Below the pieces are notes generated by a model. That model was not told where the DNA came from and did not search any database. It saw only the letters and a list, made by a program, of their open reading frames with translations. Below are positions 34,901 to 57,960 of a DNA stretch of 64,000 bases, piece by piece. Source of the stretch: the human T2T-CHM13v2.0 reference genome, Homo sapiens. Made by a program: the position numbers and the translations under genes. Numbering within the stretch: position 1 is the stretch's first letter; each line of letters opens with the position of its first letter. The stretch lies in the NCBI RefSeq assembly GCF_009914755.1, contig NC_060938.1; one strand, written 5' to 3'.

Positions 34901-36060
34901 TTGAGAGTTGCATATTGATCCTTCAAAAGTACTGAATTCCAGAATCAGGATTTTTTATAACCAACAAATTTCACATCTAACCTAATAGATGTTAAAAATT
35001 ATCATGCAGTAAATACCTTAATTTTGGTTTTGAGGGTTTTTTTGTTTTATTTTTAATTGACAAATAATAATCGTATATATTATTCCCTTAATTGATGTAT
35101 GATTTGCAGATTTATGAAGTGCAATGTGATGTTTCAGTACATGTACATACATTGTGAAATGATCAAATCAGTCTGATTAACATATTCACCACCTCAAATA
35201 CTTACTGTTTCTTGGTGATAAGGACATTTAAAATCCATTATTTTAGCTTTTTGAAATATACATTACTCTTCATTATAAGTCACCTTGATGTGTAATAGAT
35301 CACCAGAACCTATTCCTCCTGTCTAACTGAAAATTGTATTTTTTGACCAATATCTCTTCTTTCCTCCTCCACCCTCATCCCCAGCCTCTGGTAGCTATTG
35401 TTCTACTCTTTACTTATGTGAGTTCCACTTTTTTAGATTCCACATATGTGAGATCATGAGGTATTTGTCTCTCTGTGCTTGGCTTATTTCGCCTAGCATA
35501 GTGTCCTCTAGGTTTATCCACGTTGTTGCAAATGACAGAATATCCCTTCTTTTTTTCAGCTTTTCCAGCTGAAAAACCTGAATCCTAGCTTTTAAAGGCT
35601 GTATTGTATTCCATTGTACCACATTAAAAAAACTCATTTATCTATTGTTTGGCACTTCAGTTGTTTCCATATCTTGGCTATTGTGAGTAATGCTGCAGTG
35701 AACATGGGAGTGTAGGCATCTCTTTAACATACTTCTTTCGACTCCTTTGGATACATACCTGAAAGTGGAACTGCTGGATCACATGGTAACTCTACTTTTA
35801 GTTTTTTGTGGAACCTCATACCGTTTTCCAAAATGGCTGTAGTAATTTACAATACCACCAACATTGTGTAATGGTTTGCTTTTCTCCACATCCACACCAA
35901 CACTTGTTATCTTTCGTGTTTTTGATAATAGCCAATCTAACGGGTGAGATGATAGCTCATTGTGATTTTAGTTTGCCTTTCTTTGGTGATTAGAGATGTT
36001 AAGCTTTCTTTATATAACTGTTAACCATTTGTGTGTCTTTTTTTGAGAAATATTTGTTAG

Positions 36061-39737: not shown

Positions 39738-40060
<323 letters not shown>

Positions 40061-40735
40061 TGCTCATTGTATTGTTTTTACTAATTGTGTCTATTCATAA
40101 ATAGTTGGTAGAGTTGCTTTACTTTGAAACTTGCTATTTTTGTCAGCATTTTGTTTTTGAGATTTGTCCATTTGTCCATAGTCAAGTCATTTTAAATGCT
40201 GGGTAGTATTCCATTCTGAATGTAATTTATTTATTCCTGTTAATGTTGATGGACATTTGGGTTATGCCTAAGCTTTTGCTATTATAAGCAATGCTACAGT
40301 AAGTATTTTTATACATGTTTACATTTACATATGTGCATGAATTTCTCTAGGCTATATACCAAAGAGGGGATTTGCTAGCCTAGGCCTGTCTTCAACTTCA
40401 ATAAACATTGCCAAATTGCTCTTCAGATGGTTGTAGAAATATATCTGCCTATCTGCAATATGTGTGAGAGTTTTCTTTATTTCACAGGCTTACAACATTT
40501 GCTATTATCAGACCTTTAAATTTTTGCTTTAAATTTTTTAGGGGTATGAAGTGGTATCCCAGTTTTGCAGTACCTATTATTAAAAATAATATTTTATGAA
40601 TTGATTGATTGATATTAATTCAGTTTATTGAGTAGTCCTTACAGTAATAATTACTTATGGCTTTTATTTTTGCTAAAGGTATACATTTGTCCTTTATTTT
40701 GTATGATTGATTGTGCGCTTTATATATTTTGGTAG

Positions 40736-48237: not shown

Positions 48238-49768
48238 TGAGCTGCCATTTCTTGGCAAGGCATTGCTCTTGCTACCTTTCTATATAACCCTAGGGCAATG
48301 GGATGGGAATGGAATTTGGTAAGACCTCTGTGGGACTGTATGCTCCTTTTGCTAGAGGTTCTGTCTTCTGCCTGTGGGATTTTGCTTGGTGCCAAGCATT
48401 AAGGGTTCATGCTATCTGGCCTCTCTATACGTATCCTAATTTCATGGGGATATTGCTTTTGGGCTTTTATTTGTTTCAGTATTGTAGTAAAACATAGCCA
48501 GCCTTGATTCTTGCTTCCTCTGTACAGATTCTTACGTAATAAGGCTTTTCTTCATGAAAAGTTTTTACTTTTCTCTGGGCTGTCTACTCAATTCATTCTC
48601 AGATTACTTCTAAGCTGTGAGGTATCAGTGAAAAATTCTGTTTTATTAGCTCACTATCTTCCCAACACCTGTTTCATAGGTAATCTAGCCAAAATAATCA
48701 TCTTTGCACCCTGCACCCCCTCCCTATTTTAAAAAATTACTACATGGAGCCAAGAGGGCTGAATAGGAACAGCTCCAGTCTACAGCTCCCAGCATGAGTG
48801 ATGCAGAAGACGGGTGATTTCTGCATTTCCAACTGAGGTACCGGGTTCATCTCACTGGGGAGTGCCAGACAGTGGGTGCAGGACAGTGGGTGCAGTGCAC
48901 TGTGCATGAGCCAAAGCAAGGCGAGGCATCGTGTCACCCGGGAAGCGCAAGGGGTCAGGGAATTCCCTTTCCTAGTCAAAGAAAGGGGTGACAGACGGCA
49001 CCTGGAAAATCGGATCACTCCCACCCTAATACTGCGCTTTTCCAATGGGCTTATCAAACGGCACACCAGGAGATTATATCCCACACCTAGATCGGAGGGT
49101 CCTATGCCCACGGAGCCTCTCTCATTGCCAGCACAGTAGTCTGAGATCAAACTGCAAGGTGGCAGCGAGGCTTTGGTGGGGGGTGCCCGCCATTGCTCAG
49201 GCTTGAGTAGGTAAACAAAGTGGCTGGGAAGCTCGAACTGGGTGGGGCCCACCACAGCTCAAGGAGGCCTTCCTGCCTCTGTAGGCTCCACCTCTGGGGG
49301 CAGGGCACAGACAAACAAAAGGCAGCAATAACCTCTGCAGACTTTGAAGAGTCTGTCTGATAGCTTTGAAGAGAGTAGTGGTTCTTCCAGCACGCAGCTT
49401 GAGATCTGAGAACGGGCAGACTGCCTCCTCAAGTGGGTCCCTGACCCCCGAGTAGCCTAACTGGGAGGCATCCCCCAGTAGGGGCGGACTGACACCTCAC
49501 ACGGCCGGGAACTCCTCTGAGACAAAACTTCTAGAGGAACGATCAGGCAGCAGCATTTGCGGTTCACCAATATCTGCTGTTCTGCAGCCACCACTGCTGA
49601 TACCCAGGCAAACAGGGTCTGGAGTGGGCCTCCAGTAAACTCCAACAGACCTGCAGCTCAGGGTCCTGACTGTTAGAAGGAAAACTAACAAACAGAAAGG
49701 ACATCCACACCAAAAACCCATCTGTATGTCACCATCATCAAAGACCAAAGGTAGATAAAACCACAAAG

Positions 49769-50780
49769 ATGGGGAAAAACCAGAGCAGAAAAACCGGAAA
49801 CTCTAAAAATCAGAGCGCCTCTCCTCCTCCAAAGGAACGCAGCTCCTCACCAGCAACAGAACAAAGCTGGATGGAGAATGACTTGACGAATTGAGAGAGG
49901 AAGGCTTCAGAAGATCAAACTAGTCCGAGCTAAAGGAGGAAGTTTGAACCAATGGCAAAGAAGTTAAAAACTTTGAAAAAAAATTAGACGAATGGATAAC
50001 TAGAATAATCAATGCAGAGAAGTCCTTAAAGGACCTGATGGAGCTGAAAACAATGGCACGAGAACTACGTGATGAATGCACAAGCCTCAGTAACCGATGC
50101 GATCAACTGGAAGAAAGGGTATCAGTGATGGAAGATGAAATGAATGAAATGAAGTGTGAAGAGAAGTTTAGAGAAAAAAGAAAAGAAATGAGCAAAGCCT
50201 CCGAGAAATATGGGACTATGTGAAAAGACCAAATCTACATCTAATTGGTGTACCTGAAAGTGACGGGGAGAATGGAATCAAGTTGGAAAACACTCTGCAG
50301 GATATCATCCAGGAGAACTTCCCCAATCTAGCAAGGCAGGTCACTATTCAAATTCAGGAATTACAGAGAACACCACAAAGATACTCCTCAAGAAGAGCAA
50401 CTCCAAGACACGTAATTGTCAGATTCACCAAAGTTGAAATGAAGGAAAAAATGTTCAGGGCAGCCAGAGAGAAAGGTTGGGTTACCCACAAAGGGAAGCC
50501 TATCAGACTAACTGCTGATGTCTCAGCAGAAACTCTACGAGCCAGCAGAGAGTGGGGGCCAATATTCAACATTCTTAAAGAAAAGAATTTTCAACCCAGA
50601 ATTTCATATCCAGCCAAACTAGGCTTCATAAGTGAAGGAGAAATAAAATACTTCACAGACAAGCAAATGCTGAGAGATTTTGTCACCACCATGCCTGCTC
50701 TACAAGAGCTCCTGAAGGAAGCACTAACCATGGAAAGGAACAACCGGTACCAGCCACTGGAAAAACATGCCAAATTGTAA
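49769..50780 (+). pseudogene. L1 ORF1p, disrupted
   Basis: ATGGGGAAAAAC start at 49769; frameshifts and stops; C-terminal fragment KRPNLHLIGVPE...EKHAKL. Confidence 0.92.
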
Positions 50781-50843
50781 AGACCATCAAGGCTAGGAAG
50801 AAACTGCATCAACTAATAAGCAAAATAACCAGCTAACATCATA

Positions 50844-54659
<3,816 letters not shown>

Positions 54660-55019
54660 ACAATGAGAACACAGGAAGGGGAACATCACACACAGGGGAC
54701 TGTTGTAGGGTAGGGAGAGGGGGGCGGGATAGCATTAGGAGATATACCTAATGCTAAATGACGAGTTAATGGGTGCAGCACACCAACATGGCACATGTAT
54801 ACATATGTAACAAACCTGCACGTTGTGCACATGTACCCTAAAACTTAAAGTATAATAATAAAAAAAAATTAAAAAAATAAAAATTACAACATCCTACTTT
54901 CTTTACCATTTGGTTAAGTTGCATATTCTGTTCATGAGTCTCTATGATGGGATAAGTAGATTTTGGTGTTCGGATGTCACTGTGCCATCTTTACTTGGAA
55001 TTCCAATTTTTTAGATATT

Positions 55020-55809
55020 TTTTAAAAAGTGTAGAATAGTTTTATATTTCTAGAACAGTTGTGAAGATCATACAGATAGTTGCTGCATAATCCTCACGAC
55101 TTTCTCTTATTGTTAACATCTTAAATTACCATGATACTTTTGTCACGGGGAGAATTCAGTATTGTTACATAACTATTAACTAAACTGTATACTTTCTTTG
55201 GATTTCACTAATTTTTCTCAAATATCCTTTTATGCTCTAGGATCCTATGCAGGATTGGATTTAGTTTGTATGTCTCCCTAGCCTGTCCTGGGCTGTGACA
55301 TTTTCTCTAACTTTTCTTGTGTTTTAAGACCTTGATAGTTTTGAGGCATATTGATCAAGGTATTTTACACAGAATGTTTCTCAATTTGGGTTTGCCTCAT
55401 GGTTATGTTGGGTTTATGAGATTTTAGGATGAAGACTGTAGAAGTGAGTGCCATTTTCCTTATGTCATTTGAAGGTTATATTTTCCTAATAGGATTTACT
55501 ATCAGTAATATTAACCTTGATCATCTGGCCAAGATATGGTTTGCTAAGTTTCTCCACTGTAAAGTTACTTACCTCCATTCCTTTGTTCATACTCTACTCT
55601 TTGGAAGTAAATCACTAAGTACAGTCCATACTAAAGAATGAAGATGGGAGGTTGTTGAGCCCCACCTCCTGAGGGGAGAATACTTACATACATTATATGT
55701 AATACTTTAATACAGGAGATTTGTCTCTTTTCCCATTTATTCATTTATTCAGCCATTTGTGTCAGTATGGATTCATAGATGTTCATTTAATACTTTGGAT
55801 TATAATCTA
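55020..55809 (-). mobile_element. Old L1MC/MD 3' region (left flank of the L1HS)
   Basis: gaatagttttatatttctagaacag...attaaccttgatcatctggccaag...tactttggattataatc. Confidence 0.7.
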
Positions 55810-55914
55810 TTTTTTTTTTCTACATTTAGTCTTAACTTTATTGAAATAGCCTTTTAGTCTATAGCTATGTTAAATTTATTTCAAAAACTACCAAAAAGAA
55901 AGATGTATAAGTTC

Positions 55915-57064
<1,150 letters not shown>

Positions 57065-57083
57065 ACTCATCTGACAAAGGGCT

Positions 57084-57960
57084 TCTATGTTTGGTGATTT
57101 TGAGTAAAGTTGTTCTAAGTATTCACATACAGGTTTTTGTCTGGACATATATTTTCAAATCAGTTGAGTAAACCCAGTAGCAATACTGCTGAATCATAAG
57201 TTAAATCTATGTTAATTTTATAAGAAACTGCCAAATTCTTTTCCAGAGTGGCTATACTAGCAATGAATCAGAGTTCCTGTTGCTGTATATCCAAGGAATA
57301 TACAAGCATTTGGAACTGTTGTTTTTTTTTTTTTTTTTTTCTTGTTTTGGATGTTAGACATTCTAACAGGTGTGTAGTAGTATCTTAGTATTTTTATTTG
57401 CATTTCCCTGATGACAAATCATATTGAGCATCTTTTTATATGTTTATTTTTCATCTGCATATCTTCTTTGGTAAAGTGTTCAGGTATTTGATAGTTTTTC
57501 AAATTGGATTATTTTTTCCTTGTTGTTTAAAAGAGTTGTTTATATTCTGGATATAAGTCGTTTATCAGATATGTGGCTTGCACATATTTTCTTCTAGTCG
57601 ATGTCTTGTTTTTTTGAGTCTCTTAGTGTGTTTGGCAGAACACAAGTTTTAAATTTTGATAACACTTAAATTTTGATAACATTAAAAAATCTTTTTTTTT
57701 TTTTTTGCTTATGGACATTCTTATATTCTACCACCATTTGTTGGAAAGGCTGTCATTTCTACATTAAATTTCCTTTGCACCTTTGTCAAAAATAAGTTGA
57801 CTATATATCTGTGGGTTAATTTCTGAATTTACTATTCTGTTTCATTAACCTATATGTTAATCCCTTTGTCAATATCACATAATCTTGATAGTGAGTCTTG
57901 AAATCAGGTGTAGTCTTCCAACTTTGCCCTTTTATTACAGAATTGTTTTGGCTATTCTAG
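57084..57960 (-). mobile_element. Old L1M fragment (right flank of the L1HS)
   Basis: aagaaactgccaaattcttttccagagtggc...atttgcatttccctgatg...cctttgcacctttgtcaaaaat. Confidence 0.75.

What the first reader, a model, noticed from the sequence alone, without database searches (positions are those of the whole stretch)
55810..55914. Apparent 95-nt 3' transduction carried by the young L1HS-Ta
Seen, reading the minus strand: L1 3'UTR, then A13-G-AAA-G-A21 (55915-55953), then 95 nt of non-L1 sequence (55820-55914, gaacttatacatc...), which contains AATAAA (TTTATT at 55837-55842) 17 nt before a second A10 tail (55810-55819). Established: L1 read-through to a downstream poly(A) signal gives exactly this L1-polyA-unique-AATAAA-polyA layout. 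Inference: the segment is the 3' flank of a source L1 elsewhere in the genome, and its start (AAAAGAACTTATACATC) may be that source's TSD. This would let the parent element be identified.
Basis: partly seen in the sequence, partly recalled or inferred. Interest (0 to 1): 0.8.

Follow-up and report, generated by a model that had tools for sequence, protein, structure and literature searches.

The report
L1 insertion with chr16 3' transduction
A truncated, fairly young L1 jumping-gene copy in a MIPOL1 intron carries 95 bases copied from chromosome 16, which marks where its parent element once sat; this is a well-known, ordinary mechanism.

Summary
The 95 nt, plus 2 A before and 1 A after, has one other copy in this 3.1-Gb assembly. 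That copy is a 100% match over 98 nt at contig C16:66833119-66833216.

At C16 the sequence is ordinary unique DNA. The match starts directly after a T5 run at an L1-endonuclease-type site. It ends 17 nt after AATAAA, where chr16 continues without a poly(A). These are RNA-type boundaries, so a 3' transduction is strongly supported.

No L1 lies at the C16 site in this assembly. The parent locus is therefore identified, but the parent element is absent here, either polymorphic or lost.

Two points are new relative to the finding:
- The L1 is only 1111 nt long and has a 19-20-nt inverted L1 scrap at its 5' end.
- There is no convincing target-site duplication. About 950 nt of the old L1M element it landed in is missing exactly at the insertion. 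This suggests an insertion-associated target deletion.

Chimpanzee and empty human alleles could not be checked. The case is an ordinary instance of a known mechanism, of low to moderate interest.

The parts
57084..57330 (-). Upstream flank: 3' part of ORF2 of an ancient L1M element. Its homology to other L1M copies ends at about 57081-57084.
   Evidence: 39 other genomic copies at 69-79% identity; the profile and the alignment both end at ...AGAAGC (57081).
57065..57083 (+). A 19-nt inverted L1 fragment at the 5' junction (20 nt if 57064 is counted). It is an exact reverse copy of L1 sense positions 56860-56841 of the same insertion. AGC (57083-57081) is also compatible with the L1M flank, giving a 3-nt microhomology.
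   Evidence: exact match, longest match 19 nt, plus 1 nt at 57064; the L1M consensus reads GGAAGC at the junction.
55954..57064 (-). 5'-truncated L1HS of 1111 nt, comprising the end of ORF2 and the 3'UTR. It carries the Ta-type ACA and G positions.
   Evidence: sequence; 99% identity over the full length to 39 listed copies; 6 of 1111 differences to each of the three closest copies, 4 of them private to this copy.
55915..55953 (-). Internal A-rich tract A13-G-A3-G-A21. Read as the genomic poly(A) tail of the source L1, copied as part of the read-through RNA. The last two A are also present at chr16.
   Evidence: the match to chr16 begins at 55916.
55820..55914 (-). A 95-nt transduced segment, identical to C16:66833121-66833215.
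   Evidence: no match to any of the 43 L1M copies compared.
55875..55880 (-). First AATAAA inside the transduced segment. It was bypassed and lies 55 nt before the end of the segment.
55837..55842 (-). Second AATAAA, the poly(A) signal that was used. It lies 17 nt before the terminal tail.
55810..55819 (-). Terminal A10 tail of the retrotransposed RNA. Its first A is also present at chr16.
55480..55809 (-). Downstream flank: 3'UTR of an ancient L1M element in the same orientation as the upstream flank. Homology to the family starts at about 55807.
   Evidence: 39 other copies at 69-74% identity; alignment; in L012 this part lies 950 nt after the point where the upstream flank ends.

Best explanation
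A Ta-type L1HS once sat, in + orientation, at contig C16 position about 66833118/9. It had inserted at the endonuclease-type site TTCTT/AAAAA (bottom strand). I place this site at about 16q21, but that is my own rough conversion and was not computed.

One of its transcripts ran past the weak L1 poly(A) signal, through the element's own genomic A-tail, and into the flank. It skipped a first AATAAA and was cleaved 17 nt after a second AATAAA, then polyadenylated.

The L1 machinery reverse-transcribed this RNA into an intron of MIPOL1, antisense to the gene. Synthesis stopped after 1111 nt of L1. A 19-20-nt inverted L1 scrap was added at the 5' junction, by twin priming or a template jump.

The result is a 1274-bp insertion (57083-55810) laid out as inverted scrap, L1, A39, 95 nt, A10.

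The integration probably removed about 0.95 kb of the ancient L1M target instead of making a normal target-site duplication. I give this sub-claim about 60%. The confidence given for this explanation applies to the transduction itself.

What is shown:
- the anatomy of the insertion;
- the unique, identical chr16 copy and its boundaries;
- the absence of an L1 at chr16 in this assembly;
- the missing L1M stretch.

What is inferred:
- that an L1 once lay at chr16;
- that the deletion happened during integration.
For: -: the only other copy in 3.1 Gb is C16:66833119-66833216, 100% over 98 nt. The 1.4 kb around it is otherwise unique.
- the chr16 match starts right after T5 at an endonuclease-type site. 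Such sites cover 15 of 3091 positions in that locus, about 0.5%.
- the match ends 17 nt after AATAAA. chr16 continues with a T-rich and GT-rich stretch, whereas chr14 has A10.
- the 95 nt match none of the 19 + 24 (+L012) L1M copies homologous to the flanks. The segment therefore belongs to the insertion, not to the target.
- the L1 body is a young L1HS, with 6 of 1111 differences to its nearest copies.
- the two flanks are parts of one L1M that lie 950 nt apart in the intact copy L012. The missing part is found nowhere else in the window.
Against: - No L1 lies at the chr16 site in this assembly, so the source element is inferred, not seen.
- There is no clear TSD around the composite. Only ATAGA (57088-57084 and 55810-55806) is repeated, and its first A is part of the A10.
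- The 3' target junction is not a good T-rich endonuclease site.
- The terminal tail is short (A10).
- No pre-insertion allele, chimpanzee or human, could be examined.
- The size of the deletion rests on a single intact comparison copy, L012. Some family members carry about 200 nt more there.
Confidence: 0.9

Rival explanations
1. Template-switch chimera or two-step event. A polyadenylated non-L1 transcript from chr16 was reverse-transcribed for its last 95 nt. The enzyme then jumped to the poly(A) end of an L1 RNA. Alternatively, an L1 later inserted exactly beside a 95-nt retrocopy. In either case no L1 ever lay at chr16.
For: No L1 is present at chr16 in this assembly. The integration is untidy in other ways: it has an inverted scrap and no clear TSD.
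Against: - The chr16 homology begins exactly at a T5|AA endonuclease-type site. Only about 0.5% of positions qualify.
- It is preceded in chr14 by a 39-nt A-tract with two G interruptions. That is what a genomic L1 tail copied into RNA looks like.
- Known L1 chimeras place the other RNA 5' of the L1 part, not 3' of it (recalled, not tested).
- A two-step event needs two insertions at the same base.
Confidence: 0.05
2. The 95 nt is old chr14 sequence, or a DNA-level patch copied from chr16 by gene conversion or templated repair. On this view the two A-runs are incidental.
For: Not excluded by direct comparison, because no orthologous or empty allele is available here.
Against: - The segment ends at a poly(A) cleavage position 17 nt after AATAAA and is followed by A10, which is absent from chr16.
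- It lies between two parts of one L1M to which it has no similarity.
- It shows 100% identity over 98 nt, whereas the surrounding old repeats are about 70% identical to their relatives.
Confidence: 0.02
3. This rival concerns the target site only. The roughly 950-nt gap in the old L1M was not made by the integration. One possibility is that the gap was already there and the L1 inserted at the old junction with a 5-nt TSD (ATAGA). The other is that a later deletion removed the 5' part of a longer L1 insertion together with the neighbouring L1M.
For: - ATAGA is present on both sides.
- Old L1M copies often carry internal deletions (general knowledge).
- A later deletion would also explain the 5' truncation.
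Against: - A pre-existing gap requires the L1 to hit an old deletion junction to within a few bases.
- The two ATAGA copies align to two different L1M positions whose consensus both read TTGGA. They therefore need not be a duplication.
- A later deletion does not explain the exact 19-20-nt inverted L1 scrap at the junction, which is typical of integration itself.
Confidence: 0.3

Closest known systems
L1 3' transduction: read-through of the weak L1 poly(A) signal (recalled: Moran et al. 1999; Goodier et al. 2000; Pickeral et al. 2000). Its use for source tracing is stated in PMC10606232 (passages read) and in the abstract of PMC13009371 (search listing).
   Same: - The layout is L1, tail, unique flank, AATAAA, tail.
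- The flank maps to one other locus and starts at an endonuclease-type site.
- The short length (95 nt) falls within the class of short transductions.
   Different: The source locus carries no L1 in this assembly. The composite lacks a clear TSD.
Non-reference or polymorphic source L1s inferred from transductions (recalled: Tubio et al. 2014; Macfarlane et al. 2013). A source list is given in PMC13009371, Supplementary Data S1 (read).
   Same: A progenitor is inferred at a site that is empty in the genome at hand.
   Different: This locus is not among the chr16 sources in that list of 253 rows. The list holds only 16p11.1-1, 16p11.2-1, 16p12.1-1, 16p13.2-1 and 16q23.3-1. Nothing here shows that the source is still segregating or active.
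L1 insertion-mediated deletion (recalled: Gilbert et al. 2002; Symer et al. 2002; Han et al. 2005). The Han paper is not held, so I read only its reference entry.
   Same: - Target DNA is missing exactly at the insertion.
- There is no proper TSD.
- There is microhomology (AGC) at the 5' junction.
   Different: The timing of the loss is not shown, because no pre-insertion allele was available.
Twin priming / 5' inversion of L1 insertions (recalled: Ostertag and Kazazian 2001).
   Same: An inverted L1 piece sits at the 5' end and joins the direct part with a 1-nt overlap.
   Different: The piece is only 19-20 nt long. It copies positions that lie about 204-223 nt inside the direct part, not upstream of it. 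A fold-back or template jump fits at least as well.

Membership tests
L1 3' transduction | An L1 3' end with its own tail is followed by non-L1 sequence and a second, terminal poly(A). | tested here: met
   GTATAAT, A13GA3GA21, 95 nt, A10.
L1 3' transduction | A poly(A) signal lies 10-30 nt before the terminal tail. | tested here: met
   AATAAA at 55842-55837, 17 nt before the A10.
L1 3' transduction | The extra sequence maps to another locus, where it is contiguous genomic DNA without the tail. | tested here: met
   a single 100% match over 98 nt on C16, and chr16 continues AGATTTT... after it.
L1 3' transduction | At that locus the sequence lies directly 3' of a source L1. | tested here: inconclusive
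   there is no L1 within 1.5 kb upstream in this assembly. The match starts at a T5|AA endonuclease-type site, as expected for the empty allele of a polymorphic L1. Other human genomes are not held.
L1 3' transduction | Target-site duplications frame the whole composite (L1 plus transduced segment). | tested here: not met
   only ATAGA is repeated, and the flanks are 950 nt apart in an intact L1M. Insertions with target deletions lack TSDs, so this result does not argue against the mechanism.
L1 3' transduction | The composite is absent from the pre-insertion allele or from outgroup species. | not testable with these tools
   Only this assembly can be searched (notice: no relatives are held).
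L1HS Ta subfamily | ACA and G at the two 3'UTR diagnostic positions (the definition is recalled). | tested here: met
   GATGACACATTAG and CTTAGAGTAT; the older neighbouring L1 has GACGAGTTAA and CTTAAAGTAT. Ta-0 versus Ta-1 was not resolved.
L1 insertion-mediated deletion | Target sequence present in the empty allele is replaced by the insertion, with no TSD. | tested here: inconclusive
   950 nt of L1M is missing relative to L012, exactly at both junctions. The empty allele itself was not available.

The most novel reading that the evidence does not exclude
The chr14 copy is the only trace in this genome of an L1HS progenitor at the chr16 site. That progenitor is either now lost from humans or survives only as a rare allele, which could still be a source element. 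The same integration also removed about 1 kb of MIPOL1 intron and left a fold-back scrap. A single event would then combine transduction, target deletion and micro-inversion.
Probability: 0.4. Interest if true: 0.3.

Novelty: new member of a known kind. Interest (0 to 1): 0.22.

Why it matters
The 95-nt tag links this dead-on-arrival L1 copy to a precise parental site on chromosome 16 that is empty in T2T-CHM13. This gives a concrete coordinate to check in pangenome assemblies for a polymorphic, possibly still active, source L1.

It is also a clean worked example that a transduction can be verified within a single assembly from its RNA-type boundaries. The probable 0.95-kb target deletion would be a small human-lineage sequence loss in a MIPOL1 intron.

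None of this changes what is known about L1 biology.

Tried and rejected
Earlier notes and literature
- Full-text searches for MIPOL1 with LINE-1/transduction (1 paper) and with L1HS (1 paper, passage read) found nothing relevant.
- A 24-nt stretch of the segment occurs in no paper text.
- In the PCAWG paper's supplements, three 16q terms gave 0 occurrences. The spreadsheet is stored cut, and only two sheets were listed, so this negative result is weak.
- The Tang 2018 supplement holds no per-locus list.
- Han 2005 and Szak 2003 are not held.
- The supplement of the 3202-genome transduction map cannot be read here. These unseen tables may well list this insertion or the chr16 source.
- The pangenome L1 preprint's main text has no chr16 or 16q mention.

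Genome searches
- I looked for other offspring of the chr16 source, with longer, shorter or orphan transductions. There are none in this assembly.
- The weaker hits (30 places, 75-100% identity) fall mainly in the query's L1 end and A-tract. None reaches past the first 32 nt of the segment.

Readings considered and rejected
- I first read the flanks as contiguous L1M with a real TSD. I rejected this after the profile and L012 comparisons.
- Homologous recombination or gene conversion between the L1HS and the L1M is rejected. The L1HS part overlaps the region homologous to the upstream flank instead of continuing it.
- The aligner placed the tail end of the segment (AAATGTAG) against a similar L1M motif. 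I treat this as chance, because the chr16 identity is exact through it.

Full report
**Observation.** The window was read on the minus strand.
- The L1 3'UTR ends with GTATAAT at 55960-55954.
- It is followed by A13 (55953-55941), G, AAA, G and A21 (55935-55915).
- Next come 95 nt of non-L1 sequence (55914-55820) and A10 (55819-55810).
- AATAAA lies at 55842-55837, 17 nt before the A10.

Every coordinate in the finding is correct.

**The L1.**
- The direct L1 part runs from 57064 to 55954, which is 1111 nt, so the element is strongly 5'-truncated.
- It is 99% identical over its full length to each of the 39 other copies listed by the genome search.
- Against the three best copies it differs at 6 of 1111 positions each. 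Four differences are private to this copy, and three of those are C-to-T changes, two of them at CpG.
- It has ACA and G at the two 3'UTR positions that I recall as defining the Ta subfamily. The older, + strand L1 that ends near 54870 has GAG and A there.
- 'Young L1HS-Ta' is therefore fair, although four private changes and a short final tail suggest it is not a very recent insertion.

**Origin of the 95 nt.**
- I searched the whole assembly (24 contigs, 3.1 Gb) with 55810-55960. Besides the window itself there was one strong hit: C16:66833119-66833216, 100% over 98 nt, E 1.2e-42.
- The other 30 hits (75-100% identity) fall mainly in the L1 end and A-tract of the query.
- The reverse search, with 1.4 kb around the chr16 site, found only three things: the site itself, the 98-nt chr14 copy, and a local 165-nt inverted match at 84%.
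- The segment is therefore unique DNA with exactly two copies.
- At chr16 it is embedded in ordinary sequence...AATATTCTTTTT|AAGAACTTATAC... The identity ends at ...AAATGTAG|A, after which chr16 reads GATTTTAACATCTCTGTCTC whereas chr14 has the A-run.

These boundaries are what an RNA intermediate predicts.
- The upstream boundary is an L1-endonuclease-type site, TTCTT/AAAAA on the bottom strand. That is where an L1 inserted in + orientation would end, and where its 3' TSD would begin.
- By a simple rule, such sites cover 15 of 3091 positions of that locus and about 0.45-0.5% of the window.
- The downstream boundary is a cleavage point 17 nt after a canonical signal, followed by a T-rich and GT-rich stretch.
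- The interrupted 39-nt A-tract between the L1 and the segment is best read as the source element's own genomic tail, copied as part of the read-through transcript.

**What is missing.**
- There is no L1 at or within 1.5 kb upstream of the chr16 site in this assembly.
- L1 insertions are not excised precisely. The chr16 site here is therefore the ancestral empty allele, and the source L1 must have been polymorphic, absent from this genome, or since lost.
- The parent locus is identified. The parent element is not.
- No other descendant carrying this tag exists in this assembly.

**The target site.** Both flanks are ancient L1M sequence in the same orientation as the insertion.
- The upstream flank (57084-57330) matches the 3' part of ORF2 in other L1M copies at 69-79% identity (19 copies, L012-L030, were used).
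- The downstream flank (55480-55809) matches an L1M 3'UTR family at 69-74% (24 copies, L032-L055, were used).
- None of these 43 copies matches the 95 nt.
- Only one copy, L012, holds both parts. In it they are 950 nt apart.
- The stretch between them is continuous L1M, overlapping both families, and holds no Alu or other insert.
- A profile of the L1M copies matches the window only up to 57082, and its later part is found nowhere else in the window.
- Family alignments place the two break points at ...AGAAGC (57081) and at GATTATAA (about 55807).

About 0.95 kb of the old element, including the end of ORF2 that every new L1 copy must carry, is therefore missing exactly where the young L1 sits.
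- The only repeat across the insertion is ATAGA. Its two copies align to two different L1M positions that both read TTGGA in the family.
- I therefore read ATAGA as chance or microhomology rather than as a TSD.
- My preferred reading, at about 60%, is an insertion-associated target deletion.
- A pre-existing gap or a later deletion cannot be excluded without an empty allele.

**The 5' junction.**
- Positions 57083-57065 (20 nt with 57064) are an exact reverse copy of L1 sense positions 56860-56841 of the same insertion.
- Chance expectation for a 20-nt exact match within about 2.2 kb of both strands is of the order of 1e-9. This is my own arithmetic.
- AGC (57083-57081) fits both the L1M flank and this scrap.
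- The scrap copies positions inside the direct part rather than upstream of it. A fold-back or template jump fits at least as well as classical twin priming.

**Rivals.** None of the rivals to the transduction reading fits the evidence as well.
- A template-switch chimera or a two-step event would not place the chr16 break at an endonuclease-type site directly after a long interrupted A-tract.
- A DNA-level patch or ancestral chr14 sequence would not end at a poly(A) cleavage point with an added A-run.
- Recombination between the young and old L1 is excluded, because the young L1 overlaps the region homologous to the upstream flank rather than continuing it.

**Literature.**
- Tracing of source L1s by 3' transductions is standard (PMC10606232, passages read; abstract of PMC13009371 seen in the listing).
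- In the 253-row source table of PMC13009371 the chr16 entries are 16p11.1-1, 16p11.2-1, 16p12.1-1, 16p13.2-1 and 16q23.3-1. None is near this locus.
- Text searches found no mention of this insertion.
- Several tables that might list it could not be read.

**Verdict.**
- The 3' transduction reading is supported at about 90%.
- The source locus is found, but it is empty in this genome.
- The insertion probably came with a roughly 0.95-kb target deletion and a micro-inversion.
- This is a new, well-resolved instance of a well-known mechanism, and its interest is low to moderate.

Noticed in passing
window 49358-54892 (+ strand): A long older L1 with 5'UTR sequence at its start and an A-rich tail at about 54870-54892. 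It has GAG and A at the two positions where the young copy has ACA and G, so it belongs to a pre-Ta primate L1 family. It lies about 0.9 kb from the young insertion, in the opposite orientation.
   Followed up: partly
window 57322-57345 (minus strand): A run of about 20 A interrupts the ancient L1M ORF2 sequence just upstream of the region that aligns with other copies. Its origin was not examined; it could be a small insertion, a slippage product or an old tail.
   Followed up: no
L002 1967-2127 versus C16:66835233-66835397: A 165-nt inverted match at 84% lies about 2 kb downstream of the chr16 source site. It is probably two copies of an old repeat and is unrelated to the transduction.
   Followed up: no
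window 35363-35893 and 39882-40472 (minus strand): Two further ancient L1 ORF2-end fragments picked up by the L1M profile (E 2e-33 and 3e-11). Both start at the beginning of the profile, so they are separate elements, not the piece missing at the insertion.
   Followed up: partly
window 55864-55914: NCBI's repeat mask (55864-57085, from the hub's table) runs 51 nt into the transduced segment, although that segment is unique in the genome. The mask edge is therefore not the edge of the L1.
   Followed up: partly
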